Shown here one piece after another: positions 540 through 9,500 of a stretch of DNA of 64,000 nucleotides. A program made the position numbers and the translations under genes. The stretch's first letter is position 1, and each line of letters begins with the position of its first letter. This DNA is from the human T2T-CHM13v2.0 reference genome, Homo sapiens, in NCBI RefSeq assembly GCF_009914755.1, contig NC_060945.1; one strand, written 5' to 3'. The notes beneath the pieces are model-generated. The model saw nothing but the letters and a program-made list of their open reading frames with translations. It had not been told where the DNA came from and searched no databases.

Positions 540-3500
540 ATATCCTTTTGGTTGTGAAATAAAAGCTGTGGAGAAACTGAAGAAATAATTTGGAAACATT
601 CTATGTTTTTGCCTTCTTCCAGATTATTCCCTTTGAATAACACCTATTCCATTTCTTACCTCTGTCCTCTGCATTTACCCTACACCTGAGGCTAAGGGTT
701 TGTCCCTTTCTCTTCTCTGTTGGAATCCTGCTATGGAAATACTCAACATTTTATGTTAAACTTCCCATAGCTCTTCTGTTTACTTCAGGGTTATTGTAGA
801 CTAGTAAGACTTTATGGTTTGGCTTGAAAATTTGACTAGTGACCACAAAAGGCAGGATAACTTTAGGAAAATGCCTTTTGTATGAACACATTGGAATATT
901 AGAAAGTATTAAGTTAGTTAGGAATAATAATCTGCTTATTTTTTATTCTTCTTCTTGTTCATTTGAAATCAAACTGCCATGTTAAAACTTAGAAAATAGG
1001 CTGAGCTCGGTGGCTGATCCCTGAAATTCCACCACTTTGGGAGGCCAAGACAGAAGGATTGCTTGAGCCCGGAATTTTGAGACCAGCCCAAGCAACGTAG
1101 GGAGACCCTGTCTCTACAAAAAAAATTTAAAAATTAGCCGGTCGTGGTGGTGGGTGCCTGTGGTCGGTCCCAGCTAGGCTGCAGTTAGCCCTGATCATGT
1201 TACTGCACTCTAGCCTAAGCAATAGTGAGACCCTATCTCACAAAAAAAAAAACCTTAGAAAATTATTTATAAATAGTTTTTCTGTTATTTAAGTTTATAG
1301 AGTTAGTTTTCATATTGTAATTATGAAAACTATGTTGTCAATCTGAGTCTTTAACTTATGATATACGACAGATGATTAATTTAGCAGAATCAAAAGCCAG
1401 CCTTGCTGCAATTCTGGAACATTCTCTGTTTTCCACGGAACAGAAGTTACTGGCAGAACTTGATGCTATTATAGGCAAGAAGGGGACGAGGATCATCATT
1501 TGGAATCTTAGAAGGTAAACGTGGACATAGATGTTGACCGTTTGGGAAGTAAAGTGCACGTGCAGGGTGGTGGTGTTATATTCATCTCTCGTTACACACA
1601 GTAGAAATACATGGAAAGGTACTCATTTTTTGGTGTAGTTACTGATTTGTCTTTGCCCAGGATATGTTATAGAGGCCATTTCAGCTTCAATTTGAGATAT
1701 TTTCATCTTGTTAAAAAAAATTTTTTTTTGAGACGAAGTCTCACTCTTGTTCCCCAGGCTGGAATGCGATGGCGCAATCTCAGCTGACTGCAGCCTCCGC
1801 CTCCTAGGTTTAAGCGATTCTCCTGCTTCAGTCCCCCGAGTAGCTGGGATTACAGTCGCCTGCCACCATGCCCGGCTAACTTTTGTATTTTAGTTGAGAC
1901 AGGGTTTCACCGTGTTGGCCAGGCTGGTCTAGAACTCCTGACCTCAGGTGATCCACCCGCCTTGGCCTCCCAAAGTGCTGGGATTACAGGCGTGAGCCAC
2001 CACACCCGGCCAAAAAAAAAATTTTTTTTCTATCCCTGCCATTCAGTCTCCATTAGCACTCTATTCTCTCTCATTTATTCCACCCCGTCTTCTCAAAAAA
2101 AAAAAAAAAAAAAAGAAAAAAAAAAAGCAATGAGAAGACAAATTCAGGAGGATAAATCTTTCTTCATTGTGTACATTACTTAAAACTAAAAGTGATGTAG
2201 CACCTGATGAGAAAAGTAATATAGGTGAGATTTTTGTGTTGCTAAAATTTATAATCCTTTATCTTTGTGAGGATAAAATCCTTCGCAAATAAATTTTAAA
2301 ATTTAAGACTAATGTCTAATACTGAAAGATCTAAGACATACTGAATCACAGGAATAAAGCACAGGTAGTGATAAGCCTAAAGAACTGAAAAAACTTGTGC
2401 TATTCTGATACCTGAATTCGTTTTTCTTGCTTTCACTTCCCTACCCCTCCTTCTCCTGGAGGATTTTTTCAATTATACTTTCTGAGGTAATTGTAGATTC
2501 ATGTGTAGTTGTAAGAAGTAATAGAGAGATGTTAGGTACACTTCATTCAGTTTCCCCTGCTGGTAACATCTAACAAAACTATAGTACAGCCAGGCACACT
2601 GGCTCACACCTGTAATCCCAGCACTTTGGGAGGCTGAGGCGGGTGGATCATGAGGTCAGGAGATCGAGACCATCCTGGCTAACACGGCGAAACCCTGTCT
2701 CTACTAAAATTACAAAAAGTTAGCTGGGCGCGGTGGCGGGCGCCTGTAGTCCCAGCTACTAAGGAGGCTGAGGCAGGAGAATGGCGTGAACCAGGGAGGC
2801 GGAGCTTGCAGTGAGCCGAGATAGCACCACTGCACTCCAGCCTGGGCGAAAGAGCGAGACTCTGTCTCAAAAAAAAAAAAAAAAAACTATAGTACAGTAG
2901 TACTATTGATATTGACAGGATTTTGATGTTGATACAGTCAAGATGCAGGACACTTTAGTCATCACAGGAATCCCTCATGTTGCTCTTTTGTAGCCATACC
3001 CACTTCCCTCATAACCCCACTCCCTCCTTAATCCGTGGCAACCTCTAATCTGTTCTCTATTTCTATAATTTTGCCATTTTAAGAATATTACATAAACAAC
3101 ATGGAAACCTTTTGGATTTGACTTTTTTCACTTAGCATAACTCCTGGCGTTTTCCAGGTTCTTGTATGTATAGTTTGCACCTTTTCCTTTTTCTTTTTTT
3201 TTTCTTTCTTTTCTTTTCTTTCTTTCTTTCTTTTTTTTTTTTTTTGAGATAGCGTTTTGCTCTTTCCCCCAGGGTGGAGTGAAGTATAGCGCCATCTCGG
3301 CTCACTGCAACCTCCGCCCACCGGGTTCAAGCGATTCTGCTGCCTCATCCTCCCGTGTGGCTGGGATTATAGGCACCTGCCACCATGCCTGGCTGATTTT
3401 TGTGTTTTTAGTAGAGACAGGGTTTTGCCATATTGACCAGGCTGGTCTTGAACTTCTGACCTCAGGTGATCCACATGCCTCAGCCTCCCAAAGTGGTAGG

Positions 3501-6500: not shown

Positions 6501-9500
6501 AATAGCAGATATTTACTGTTCCTTGATGTATCCTAATGTGTTCCTAGTGTTGAAAAAGTCTTATTCAAGTATGAAACAGGTTCAGAGGCAGCCAGAGAAG
6601 ATGGTATGGTTTTAGTACACTACAAAATACAGTGTTTTTTAAATGACGCAAAGCACCACTTCTTTTGAAATCAAGAGTCAGGAAAAGTAGGAGAAGCTTT
6701 TAAGTTTTAGTTTTGTGTTGAATCTTTTTTTTTTGAGGTGGGGGGGTCTCCCTCTGTCCCCCACACTGGAGTGCAGTGGTGTGATCTCGGCTCACTGCAG
6801 CCTCCGCCTCCATACTTGACAGAAAAATCAGAAAATGTACCTTTTTGTACATATATACATTTTTTAAAATTAAAATGTGATCATACCATACGTGCTGTTT
6901 TGTAATCTTTTTCACTTAGTAATAAATATATCAGCATCTATATAGATCAGTTGATTGTATTCTGCAAGTCATTTTTACTGGCTGCGGTATATTGAGCTTA
7001 TTTTTAATGAAAAATAACCAAATCAGAATAACATACAGCTTTATAGCCTATTTTATTGAAGAGTTAATTGATCTTTTATCAAGTTAATAGGAGAGCTTCT
7101 GTGTAAATCCATGTCTAAGTAATGGTGAGCAAACCTGTAGATACTAACTTCTTGTTATGTTATTTTCCAGGCTTATTGCAGTATATTATATCTAAAGCCA
7201 AGAATGCAGATCATCCTACGTGGACAGAAAGTGAAGACACAGCTGGTTTCGAAGAGTCTTGCCTACATCGAACGTGATGTTTATCGACCAAAATTTTTAG
7301 TATCCTTTTTCTGATTCCTTATAGAGATATGTTAGTCAGGTGTATTCTCTTTTGCCCCTTTCCCCTTATATGCTGATAGGGATTCTAGTCTGCTCTAGCT
7401 TTGCCCTCCTTTGTGTGCTTTTGGACTTACCAAATAATGAAATAGAAAGGATGATTTGAACTGAGTGAGGTGTTGTGTTCAAAATTTACCTTAATATTTT
7501 AAGTCTAAAACAGTGAGAATTACCTTTGGATTCAACTGCAGAAATAAAGATCATTATGGGATAATGATGTATCACAGAAATAGACTCATCAAAGCTTATG
7601 AAAAAGTTGGATGTCAGTTAAGGGTAAGCTTTATTTTTTATTTGAAAAGAAAATGTCTATTTTCCACAAAAGTTAGGATAATATATGCTCTTGAGTCAAA
7701 TGTTAAATAATTTTATTGTACCTTTTGCCTATAGCTTTTTAATGTAAATTTGTAAAAAATAACACTGTGGTATTTGAACTTTTATTAACTCCCCTCCCCT
7801 CCCCTCCCTTCCCCTCCCCTGCCCTGCCCTCTCCTTTCCTTTCCCTTCCTTTTTTTTGAGACGGAGTCTGAGTCTTGCCCAGGCTTCAGTGCAGTGGCAC
7901 AATCTTGGCTAAACTCACTGCCATATTCACCTTCTGGGTTCAAGTGATTCTGCTGCCTCAGCCTCCCAAGTAGCTGGGACTACAGGTGCATGCCACCACG
8001 CCTGGTTTTTTTTGTTTTTTGTTTTTTTTTTGAGACAGAGCCTTGCTCTGTTGCCCAGGCTGGAGTGCAGTGGCGATATCTCGGCTCACTGCAGCCTCTG
8101 CCTTCTGGGTTCAAGCAATTCTCCTGCCTCAGCCTTCCAAGTAGCTGGGACTACAGGCACGTGCCGCCACGCCTGGCTAATTTTTGTATTTTTAGTAGAG
8201 ATGAGGTTTCAGTGTGTCAGCCAGCATGGTCTTGATCTCCTGACCTGGTGATCTGCCTGCCTCAGCCTCCCAAAGTTCTGGGATTACAAGCGTGTGCCAC
8301 CGCACTCGGCCAGTTGTTTTGTATTTTTAGTAGAGACGAGGTTTCACCGTGTTGTCCAGGCTTGTCCCAAACTCCTGACCTCAGGTGATCCACCCGCCTC
8401 GGTCTCCCAAAGTGCTGGGATTACAGGTGTGAGCCACCGCGCCCGGCTTTATTTTTATTTTTTGAGAGACTCTACCTGGCTGGAGTGCAGTGGCGCAATT
8501 TTGGCTCACTGCAGCCTCTGACTCCCAGGTTCAAGTGATCCTCGCACCTTAGCCTCCTGAGTAGCTGTGACTACAGGTGCATGCCAGCACCTTAATTTCT
8601 TTTATTTATTTATTTGTTTGTTTATTTTTTGAGATGGAGTCTCACTCTGTCACCCAGGCTGGAGTGCAGTGGTGTGATCTCAGCTCACTGCAACCTCCAC
8701 CTCCCTGGTTCAAGCGATTCTCGGGCCTTAGCCTCCCAAGTAGCTGGGACTACTGGCGTGTGCCGCTATGCCAGGCCAAATTTTGTATTTTTAGTAGAGA
8801 CGGCTTTACCATGTTGACCAGGCTGGCCTCAAACTCCTGAACTCAAGTGATCCACCCACGTCGGCTTCTCAGCGTGCTCAGATTACAGGCCTGAGGCAAT
8901 GCGCTCGGCCTAGTATATTAATTTTGTATTTGATCCTGAACAGCCCTGAGGTGGGGACAGAATATTTCTTTTATCCCTATTTTATGCATAAGGAAGTTGG
9001 GGACCAGACACAGTGGCTCATTCCTGTAATCCTAGTGCTTCGTGTGGCTGAGGTAGGAGGATTGCTTGAGGCCAGTGCTTCAAGACCAGCTTGGGCAACA
9101 TACCAAGTCTCTACCTCAGCTGAGTACGGTGCCTTACACCTGTAATCCCAGCATATTTGAGAGGTCTGGGCCGGGGGATTGCTTGAGCCCAGGAGTTCAA
9201 GACCAGCCTGGGCAATGGGGCAAAACCCTGTCTGTACAAAAAAATACAAAAATTAGCTGGGCCTGGTGGTGCATGCCTGTGGTCCCAGCTACCAGGAGGC
9301 TGAGGTGGGAGGATTGCTTGAGCCCAAGAAGTTGAGGCTGTAGTGAGCCAAAATTGTGCCTCTGCTTTTCAGTCTAGGCAACAGGGTGAGGTCCTATCTC
9401 AAACAAACAAACAAACAAAAATCGTCTCTACAAAACAATAAAAACAAATTAGCCAGGTGTGGTTGTACGTCCTTGTAGTCTTAGTTATTTGGGAGGCTGA

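What the first reader, a model, noticed from the sequence alone, without database searches (positions are those of the whole stretch)
1372..7299. Two U12 introns bracket exons 5-7: predicted minor-spliceosome circRNA with an endless, AUG-starting ORF
Seen: the U12 branch/acceptor before exon 5 and the U12 GT donor after exon 7 are compatible with each other, so exons 5-7 form a natural U12 back-splicing unit. A GT-type donor should favour an AG, and one lies 5 nt into exon 5 (1370-1371), about 17 nt from the branch A. That circle is 143+148+129 = 420 nt = 140 codons. The junction ...TTT TTA|ATG ATT stays in the MORC3 frame, so there is no stop codon; a strong-context AGGATGG also lies in frame at 4101. 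The AC acceptors would give 425 or 422 nt (frame-shifting). A sense Alu (999-1252) and antisense Alus (7850-8910) could loop the region. The reciprocal linear skip (exon 4 to 8) is out of frame. Inference: U12 acceptor choice could toggle between full-length MORC3, NMD, and a rolling-circle-translatable ATPase fragment. I recall MORC3 circRNAs being catalogued, but cannot verify their junction here.
Basis: partly seen in the sequence, partly recalled or inferred. Interest (0 to 1): 0.8.

Follow-up and report, generated by a model that had tools for sequence, protein, structure and literature searches.

The report
Known circMORC3, flanked by U12 introns
The predicted circle of MORC3 exons 5-7 is the already catalogued circular RNA circMORC3, and the sequence suggests, without proving, that the rare minor spliceosome makes it.

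Summary
MORC3 intron 4 (540-1366) is an AT-AC U12-type intron and intron 7 (7300-7503) a GT-AG U12-type intron. They bracket exons 5-7. A circle starting at the AG at 1370-1371 is 420 nt and has no stop in the MORC3 frame.

The circle is not new. It is hsa_circ_0001189 (circMORC3). It is RNase R resistant, has a mouse counterpart, and has an average circular fraction of about 0.24-0.26. A second published junction, 7299|1365 (427 nt), also avoids the annotated AC acceptor.

My best reading (about 0.6) is a minor-spliceosome back-splice from the intron 7 donor to the intron 4 branch site. The cut shifts because GT-AC ends are disfavoured. No perturbation data exist, and my searches found no paper linking circMORC3 to U12 splicing.

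Three parts of the interpretation are weak or unsupported:
- Alu looping is weak.
- The endless ORF follows from a coding circle whose length is a multiple of 3.
- No evidence supports translation or a regulated toggle.

U12-type circRNAs are a known kind (Szabo 2015).

The parts
540..1366 (+). MORC3 intron 4, AT-AC U12-type (827 nt)
   Evidence: The donor is ATATCCTTT at 540-548 and the intron ends AC at 1365-1366. Morc3 AT-AC intron retention on CENATAC or ZRSR2 loss is shown in PMC8280824, Fig 5A legend.
1348..1355 (+). U12-type branch-site motif TCTTTAAC of intron 4 (branch A at 1353 or 1354)
   Evidence: It has one mismatch to the recalled consensus TCCTTRAY. It lies 12 nt before the annotated intron end.
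1363..1364 (+). AT used as the 3' terminal dinucleotide in the published 427-nt circle (junction 7299|1365)
   Evidence: PMC11659586 reports chr21:37711070-37717005 with Sanger junction 'GTTA', the reverse complement of TA|AC. The AT lies 10 nt from A1354.
1365..1366 (+). Annotated AC 3' end of intron 4, used for the linear mRNA
   Evidence: Taken from the annotation. It lies 12 nt from A1354.
1370..1371 (+). AG 5 nt inside exon 5; the acceptor of hsa_circ_0001189
   Evidence: Searches place it 17 nt from A1354. The published coordinates and Sanger junction 'TAAT' fit a start at 1372.
1372..1514 (+). Exon 5 part included in the 420-nt circle; it starts with the in-frame ATG (M156)
   Evidence: Exon 5 equals Q155-R202 of PDB 6O1E.
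3992..4139 (+). Exon 6, with the in-frame ATG at 4101 in a strong context
7171..7299 (+). Exon 7 (A253-L295); the start of the Morc6_S5 domain
   Evidence: PF17942, E = 3e-11.
7300..7503 (+). MORC3 intron 7, GT-AG U12-type (204 nt, repeat-free). Its donor GTATCCTTT at 7300-7308 is the back-splice donor. Its branch motif ACCTTAAT is at 7488-7495.
   Evidence: The donor matches only 3 of 9 U1-consensus positions, against 5-8 for the 17 ordinary GT donors in the window.
984..1252 (+). Degenerate sense Alu-like element in intron 4
   Evidence: At E <= 1e-5 all of its complementary partners lie inside introns 5 and 6.
7850..8925 (-). Cluster of antisense Alus in intron 8, downstream of exon 8
   Evidence: They are only 62-75% complementary to the intron 4 element over 40-195 nt.

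Best explanation
Exons 5-7 of MORC3 lie between the gene's two minor (U12-type) introns. The known circular RNA circMORC3 (hsa_circ_0001189) forms when the G-type U12 donor after exon 7 (7300) is back-spliced to the U12 branch site of intron 4 (1348-1355).

A GT donor pairs poorly with the AC end that the linear mRNA uses. The second step therefore takes the AG at 1370-1371, giving the 420-nt circle. In a minor isoform it takes the AT at 1363-1364, giving a 427-nt circle.

U12 donors and branch sites are largely incompatible with U2-type partners, and U12 introns are removed slowly. Once the U2-type introns 5 and 6 are gone, these two sites are each other's only alternative partners.

Shown: the signals, the arithmetic, and the existence and exact junctions of the circles (the last from the literature). 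Inferred: that the minor spliceosome catalyses the back-splice, and why the acceptor shifts. The stop-less ORF is a by-product, and the RNA is most likely not translated to any meaningful extent.
For: - Both flanks carry 9-nt U12 donor motifs exactly at annotated intron starts. Both have branch motifs 9-12 nt from the intron ends.
- Morc3 AT-AC and GT-AG introns respond to minor-spliceosome defects (PMC8280824, Fig 5A legend).
- The circle is real. circBase coordinates and 'exons 5 to 7' are given. The mouse counterpart mmu_circ_0006475 is named and detected. The average circular fraction is 0.237 and 0.257 in Guo 2014 Table S2A.
- Both published junctions avoid the AC site, using AG at 17 nt and AT at 10 nt from the branch A.
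- GT-AC and AT-AG combinations are described as disfavoured, and U12 3' site choice as error-prone (Turunen 2013). GT-AT is listed among natural G-type minor introns.
- The 7300 donor matches U1 consensus at 3 of 9 positions, against 5-8 of 9 for the 17 ordinary donors.
- In Guo's catalogue the other 3 distinct MORC3 circles map to U2-type sites at both ends. None of the 4 mixes a U12 site with a U2 site (my mapping).
- U12-dependent circRNAs that use unannotated acceptors close to the mRNA's own are documented for RANBP17 (Szabo 2015).
Against: - No experiment links this circle to U11/U12/U6atac.
- GT...AG flanks are also what the major spliceosome uses.
- The AG lies 17 nt from the branch A, outside the 11-13 nt optimum.
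- The 20 nt before the AG hold 11 pyrimidines. That is low but within the 8-16 range of the 17 U2-type acceptors in the window, so a U2-type 3' site is not excluded.
- Most circRNA callers keep only GT-AG or AT-AC flanks. A 7299|1367 (GT...AC) junction would go unreported, so its absence from print says little.
- Guo 2014 found that AT-AC-flanked candidates were no better than noise and concluded that the major spliceosome makes most if not all circRNAs.
- The 7299|1365 junction rests on one paper, which assigned it to the minus strand.
- Only 4 circles support the 'no mixed sites' pattern.
Confidence: 0.6

Rival explanations
1. The major (U2-type) spliceosome makes the circle. It reads GT at 7300 as a weak U1 donor and the AG at 1370-1371 as a cryptic U2-type acceptor. 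On this reading the U12 context is incidental.
For: - The junction is flanked by GT...AG and passed GT-AG filters.
- Guo 2014 concluded that the major spliceosome makes most if not all circRNAs.
- Point mutations can convert GT-AG U12 donors to U2-type donors (Turunen 2013).
- Pyrimidine content before the AG, 11 of 20, falls inside the range for local U2 acceptors.
Against: - The donor matches U1 consensus at 3 of 9 positions, the lowest of 18 GT donors in the window.
- The longest pyrimidine run before the AG is 4 nt.
- A near-consensus U12 branch motif sits 17 nt upstream.
- The second junction ends in AT, which is not a U2-type acceptor.
Confidence: 0.22
2. The circle comes from an exon-skipping lariat. 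Exon 4's AT donor is first joined to intron 7's branch site and AG, skipping exons 5-7. The excised lariat is then spliced internally into the circle. This is still a U12 route with a different order of events.
For: The four U12 sites can swap partners on paper. The skip is out of frame, so its linear product would be unstable and hard to see.
Against: The skip needs an AT-AG pairing, which is described as disfavoured. Exon skipping around U12 introns is reported as rare. I saw no exon 4-8 junction in anything I could read.
Confidence: 0.1
3. Inverted Alu pairing across the locus drives circularisation, and splice-site type is secondary.
For: A sense Alu lies in intron 4 and antisense Alus at 7850-8925.
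Against: - At E <= 1e-5 the intron 4 element has 6 complementary partners, all inside introns 5 and 6, and none downstream of exon 7.
- Relaxed matches to 7850-8925 are 62-75% over 40-195 nt.
- Those Alus are in intron 8, so pairing would bracket exons 5-8.
- Intron 7 has no complementarity to intron 4; the best minus-strand hit is 14 nt at E = 1.2.
- A mouse counterpart circle exists without primate Alus.
Confidence: 0.1
4. The 420-nt circle is translated by rolling-circle readthrough into repeated MORC3(156-295) units, and acceptor choice acts as a regulated switch.
For: The frame has no stop and carries three in-frame ATGs, one in a strong context. A fish circMORC3 is reported to be translated.
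Against: - About one in three coding-exon circles is a multiple of 3 and so has no stop (reasoning).
- The fish circle comes from exons 12-14 plus introns, so it is not the same circle.
- The encoded piece lacks the N-terminal ATP-binding part and holds only the first third of the S5 domain.
- None of the papers listed for circMORC3 (20 of 33 listed), hsa_circ_0001189 (10 of 10) or MORC3 + 'rolling circle' (10 of 11) is, by title or abstract start, about translation of the human circle.
- Reported human roles are as a biomarker, in miR-708-3p binding and in VIRMA binding.
Confidence: 0.07

Closest known systems
hsa_circ_0001189 / circMORC3 (circBase; hg19 chr21:37711076-37717005 +)
   Same: It is the same object. 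It comprises exons 5-7, its donor is the exon 7 end, and its published Sanger junction 'TAAT' equals window 7299|1372.
   Different: None in structure. In the passages I read, the papers treat it as an ordinary exonic circRNA, a biomarker or a miRNA or VIRMA binder. They do not mention U12 introns, the 5-nt acceptor shift or the stop-less frame.
U12 circular RNAs of RANBP17 and ATXN10 (Szabo et al. 2015, PMC4506483)
   Same: The back-splice donor is an annotated U12-type 5' site. The acceptors are unannotated sites very close to the mRNA's own acceptor, and several isoforms exist.
   Different: In MORC3 both flanking introns are annotated U12 introns of different subtypes (AT-AC upstream, GT-AG downstream), which offers a reason for the acceptor shift. 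MORC3 is not named in Szabo's main text. Their list of about 60 annotated U12 circles (Additional file 23.xls) could not be read.
Fish circMORC3 encoding MORC3-84aa (Miichthys miiuy, PMC10775979)
   Same: It comes from the same host gene family and is a circRNA with a reported coding function.
   Different: It is made of exons 12-14 plus introns 12-13 (424 nt) and has a finite 84-aa ORF driven by an IRES. It is a different part of the gene and gives no support for translation of the human circle.
JNK-family mutually exclusive U12/U2 splice-site use (Turunen et al. 2013 review)
   Same: The outcome is set by which sites are compatible with which spliceosome.
   Different: That case is linear alternative splicing between U12 and U2 partners. 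Here two U12 introns are proposed to swap partners in the back direction.
Rolling-circle translated circRNAs with stop-less ORFs (recalled from the field; no call)
   Same: The length is a multiple of 3, an in-frame AUG is present and there is no stop.
   Different: There is no ribosome, peptide or reporter evidence for the human MORC3 circle.

Membership tests
U12-type (minor) intron: MORC3 introns 4 and 7 | Extended 5' splice-site consensus (R)TATCCTT at the intron start | tested here: met
   ATATCCTTT at 540 and GTATCCTTT at 7300, exactly at annotated intron starts. The consensus itself is recalled and agrees with Szabo's 'TATCCT' rule.
U12-type (minor) intron: MORC3 introns 4 and 7 | Branch-site consensus TCCTTRAY close to the 3' end (optimum 11-13 nt), without a polypyrimidine tract | tested here: met
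   TCTTTAAC at 1348-1355 lies 12 nt from the end. ACCTTAAT at 7488-7495 lies 9-10 nt from the end. Each has one mismatch. The motif alone is common, with 126 one-mismatch hits in the window; position is what counts.
U12-type (minor) intron: MORC3 introns 4 and 7 | Dependence on minor-spliceosome components | not testable with these tools
   Literature only. The PMC8280824 Fig 5A legend shows Morc3 AT-AC and GT-AG intron retention after CENATAC depletion or ZRSR2 mutation. MORC3 is listed as a U12-intron gene in PMC1874599.
U12-dependent circRNA (Szabo 2015 kind) | A true circle: back-splice junction reads, RNase R resistance, Sanger-confirmed junction | not testable with these tools
   Literature only. 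I mapped the junction coordinates onto the window myself.
U12-dependent circRNA (Szabo 2015 kind) | The back-splice donor is a U12-type 5' site | tested here: met
   The circle ends at 37717005, which is window 7299. This is fixed by the exon 7 start at 37716877, 129 nt earlier. The next bases are GTATCCTTT.
U12-dependent circRNA (Szabo 2015 kind) | The acceptor lies within U12 range of a U12 branch site | tested here: inconclusive
   The AG is 17 nt and the AT 10 nt from A1354. The stated optimum is 11-13 nt. I could not read a source giving the tolerated upper limit.
U12-dependent circRNA (Szabo 2015 kind) | Circle level falls when the minor spliceosome is impaired | not testable with these tools
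   I found no such data in the searches.
Rolling-circle translated circRNA | Length a multiple of 3, no in-frame stop, an in-frame AUG | tested here: met
   420 nt, no stop over 4 laps, ATGs at 1372, 4101 and 7204.
Rolling-circle translated circRNA | Ribosome occupancy across the junction, a junction peptide, or ladder products | not testable with these tools
   Nothing appeared in the listings. Databases of circRNA ORFs were not available.

The most novel reading that the evidence does not exclude
circMORC3 is an obligate minor-spliceosome product, which would make it an abundant, mouse-conserved model for U12 back-splicing. The rule that the first and last intron nucleotides must be compatible forces the 5-nt acceptor shift. 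That shift alone yields a stop-less 420-nt circle, which is translated round and round into repeated MORC3(156-295) units. Its output would rise when the A-type intron 4 is spliced poorly, for example when CENATAC is low.
Probability: 0.06. Interest if true: 0.8.

Novelty: new member of a known kind. Interest (0 to 1): 0.42.

Why it matters
If the U12 reading is right, one of the more efficiently circularised human transcripts is a minor-spliceosome product. Its average circular fraction is about a quarter in Guo's catalogue. It has been hidden in GT-AG-filtered catalogues that were taken as evidence that the major spliceosome makes essentially all circRNAs.

It would then be a convenient natural model with three uses:
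- a test of whether first and last intron nucleotide compatibility governs U12 3' site choice;
- a readout of minor-spliceosome activity in disease (ZRSR2, RNPC3, U4atac or CENATAC defects);
- a test of how two U12 introns in one gene interact.

The circle itself, its biomarker uses and the existence of U12 circRNAs as a class are already in print. The translation idea adds little without data.

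Tried and rejected
- Fish circMORC3 as support for translation: rejected. 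It comes from exons 12-14 plus introns.
- Szabo 2015 as prior report of a MORC3 U12 circle: unresolved.
  - MORC3 is absent from the main text.
  - The readable supplements hold only mouse Morc3 junction rows; the two displayed of 16 are linear.
  - My coordinate-fragment searches found no circle row.
  - Additional files 23 and 24 are .xls and unreadable.
- Reviews and preprints on non-canonical splicing and circRNAs: nothing on MORC3.
- Coordinate search for an AC-acceptor circle (37711071 or 37711072): by their titles, the listed hits were unrelated papers, presumably matches to reference identifiers.
- Branch motif counting as a significance test: uninformative, with 126 hits, fewer than in shuffles.
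- Pfam on exons 5 and 6 alone: only sub-threshold chance hits.
- Minus-strand reading of the 7299|1365 junction: considered and set aside.
  - The minus-strand 'donor' begins ATATC, but no branch motif precedes the 'acceptor'.
  - No antisense gene is annotated.
  - The + strand flanks AT...GT mimic a minus-strand AT-AC pair, which probably explains the caller's strand. This is my inference.
- Earlier findings of this scan were not open.

Full report
**What is in the sequence**

The window holds MORC3 exons 4-17. Exon 4 ends at 539, and the next bases are ATATCCTTTT.
- Intron 4 (540-1366, 827 nt) carries TCTTTAAC at 1348-1355 and ends AC at 1365-1366, 12 nt after A1354.
- Exon 7 ends at 7299 and is followed by GTATCCTTTT.
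- Intron 7 (7300-7503, 204 nt) carries ACCTTAAT at 7488-7495 and ends AG.
- The other 11 MORC3 introns in the window have ordinary GT-AG ends.
- The 9-mer RTATCCTTT occurs 3 times in the window on both strands, against 1.57 expected; 20 of 100 shuffles reach 3. The count is unremarkable, but 2 of the 3 hits are exactly the first bases of annotated introns.
- The branch motif with one mismatch is common, with 126 hits. Only its position matters.

The literature agrees that these are minor introns. MORC3 is listed among U12-intron genes (PMC1874599, passages). The CENATAC paper uses Morc3 to show retention of an AT-AC and a GT-AG minor intron after CENATAC depletion or ZRSR2 mutation (PMC8280824, Fig 5A legend).

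- AG is at 1370-1371, and ATG at 1372 is in the MORC3 frame.
- Exons 5-7 are 148+148+129 = 425 nt. From 1372 they are 420 nt.
- The 420-nt circle has no stop in the MORC3 frame over four laps. It has three in-frame ATGs, at 1372 (weak context), 4101 (A at -3, G at +4) and 7204.
- Circles starting at 1367, 1370 or 1365 (425, 422 and 427 nt) give ORFs of 142, 141 and 144 aa from the same ATG.
- Skipping exons 5-7 shifts the frame and meets a stop immediately.

**The circle is already known**

- PMC6954084 (passages) names hsa_circ_0001189 at hg19 chr21:37711076-37717005 + as circMORC3, 'consisting of exons 5 to 7'. It pairs it with mouse mmu_circ_0006475 and says circBase lists 41 MORC3 circles.
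- Guo 2014 Table S2A lists the same coordinates twice, with average circular fractions 0.237 and 0.257.
- The same table lists 37716876-37721706. Its start lies 129 nt before 37717005, which is the length of exon 7. So 37717005 is window 7299.
- PMC11659586 (passages) reports chr21:37711077-37717005+ with Sanger junction 'TAAT' and RNase R resistance.
- The hg19 span is 5929 nt and the window span is 5928 nt. I infer a 1-nt intron length difference between the assemblies.
- The mouse circle is detected in spinal cord and muscle data.

The same paper reports chr21:37711070-37717005, called on the minus strand, with Sanger junction 'GTTA' and RNase R resistance.
- Seven nt upstream of 1372 is 1365. 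TA|AC reverse-complemented is GTTA, so the junction is 7299|1365 and the circle is 427 nt.
- On the + strand its flanks are AT (1363-1364) and GT (7300-7301). These mimic a minus-strand AT-AC pair, and I think that is why the caller chose the minus strand.
- On the sense strand this is a GT...AT event. GT-AT is listed among natural G-type minor introns.
- This junction rests on one paper.

**How it most likely works**

Both published junctions use the U12-type donor of intron 7 and land 10 or 17 nt after the intron 4 branch A. Both avoid the AC at 12 nt that the linear AT-AC intron uses.

Turunen 2013 (passages) states four relevant points:
- GT-AC and AT-AG combinations appear disfavoured.
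- U12 3' site choice is error-prone.
- The optimum distance from branch site to 3' site is 11-13 nt.
- U12 introns are removed more slowly, and U12 and U2 sites are generally incompatible.

I therefore read the circle as a minor-spliceosome back-splice between the only two U12 partners available once introns 5 and 6 are gone. The cut is shifted by end compatibility.

Support:
- The 7300 donor matches U1 consensus at 3 of 9 positions, against 5-8 of 9 for the 17 ordinary GT donors in the window.
- In Guo's GT-AG-filtered catalogue the 4 distinct MORC3 circles are exons 5'-7, exons 7-9 (an exact map to 7171-12000), and two circles that map within 3-8 nt of the exon 13 start and the exon 14 and 16 ends. 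None joins a U12 site to a U2 site (my mapping).

Against:
- There is no perturbation experiment.
- GT...AG is also the major-spliceosome signature.
- The 17-nt distance is outside the optimum.
- The pyrimidine content before the AG, 11 of 20, is low but within the 8-16 range of local U2 acceptors.
- Caller filters would hide a GT...AC junction.
- Guo 2014 saw no signal for AT-AC-flanked circles.

I put the U12 reading at about 0.6 and a cryptic U2-type event at about 0.2.

**Alu looping**

- The intron 4 element (about 984-1252) is degenerate.
- At E <= 1e-5 it has 6 complementary matches, all inside introns 5 and 6, and none downstream of exon 7.
- Among the 25 longest of the 137 inverted pairs in 1-12000, the two with an arm in intron 4 also pair into introns 5 and 6.
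- With relaxed scoring, the antisense Alus at 7850-8925 match at 62-75% over 40-195 nt.
- Those Alus lie in intron 8, so pairing would bracket exons 5-8.
- Intron 7 shows no complementarity to intron 4.
- A mouse counterpart circle exists.

Alu pairing is at most a minor aid.

**Coding claim**

Any circle of coding exons whose length is a multiple of 3 has no stop in the host frame, so the endless ORF is expected in about a third of such circles.
- The unit is M156-L295. Exon 5 is Q155-R202 and exon 7 is A253-L295 of PDB 6O1E.
- Exon 4 carries the HATPase_c_3 match. Exons 7 and 8 match Morc6_S5 profile positions 5-48 and 54-92 of 139.
- The unit therefore lacks the ATP-binding N-terminus and holds only the start of the S5 domain.
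- The translated fish circMORC3 comes from exons 12-14 and is a different circle.
- The listings for circMORC3 (20 of 33 papers listed), hsa_circ_0001189 (10 of 10) and MORC3 + 'rolling circle' (10 of 11) show no paper on translation of the human circle.

**Novelty**

U12 circRNAs are a known kind. Szabo 2015 reports about 60 at annotated sites and 17 de novo, and RANBP17 uses acceptors close to the mRNA's own.

I found no paper tying circMORC3 to U12 splicing. The searches were:
- MORC3 + 'minor intron': 2 papers.
- MORC3 + U12: 16 papers.
- 'minor spliceosome' + circRNA + U12 + back-splicing: 16 papers.
- 'circular RNA' + 'minor spliceosome' + U12: 52 papers, 30 listed.

Szabo's Additional file 23 and the bioRxiv preprint's Table S3 could hold it, and I could not read them.

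**Verdict**

The mechanism is plausible and apparently unremarked. The translation and toggle ideas are unsupported.

Noticed in passing
window 61921-61929 (+), CHAF1B intron between exons 59996-60092 and 62102-62186: This is the third exact ATATCCTTT in the window. It sits just after an Alu-like end, with TTCTTAAT 30 nt downstream (61951). It is not at any annotated exon boundary and is probably chance.
   Followed up: partly
window 1372-7299 versus hg19 chr21:37711077-37717005: The span is 5928 nt in this T2T window and 5929 nt in hg19. I infer a 1-nt indel somewhere in introns 5 or 6. Further downstream the offsets to Guo's circle coordinates drift by 3-8 nt.
   Followed up: no
window 1363-1364 and 7300-7301: The + strand flanks AT...GT of the published 7299|1365 junction read as AC...AT on the minus strand. 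A caller that accepts AT-AC signals would therefore place a sense-strand GT...AT back-splice on the wrong strand. This is a possible general artefact for U12 circles.
   Followed up: partly
Guo 2014 Table S2A rows for chr21 37711076-37717005: The same circle coordinates are listed twice, with different average circular fractions (0.237 and 0.257). This may reflect two internal isoforms. I did not resolve it.
   Followed up: no
window 3025-3032 and 6520-6527 (+), introns 5 and 6: Exact matches to the U12 branch consensus (TCCTTAAT and TCCTTGAT) lie inside the U2-type introns of the circle. I did not check whether they are ever used.
   Followed up: no
window 22683-22788 (+): MORC3 intron 11 is only 106 nt long and has the donor cag|GTACCA. 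It looks like an ordinary U2-type intron but is notably short.
   Followed up: no
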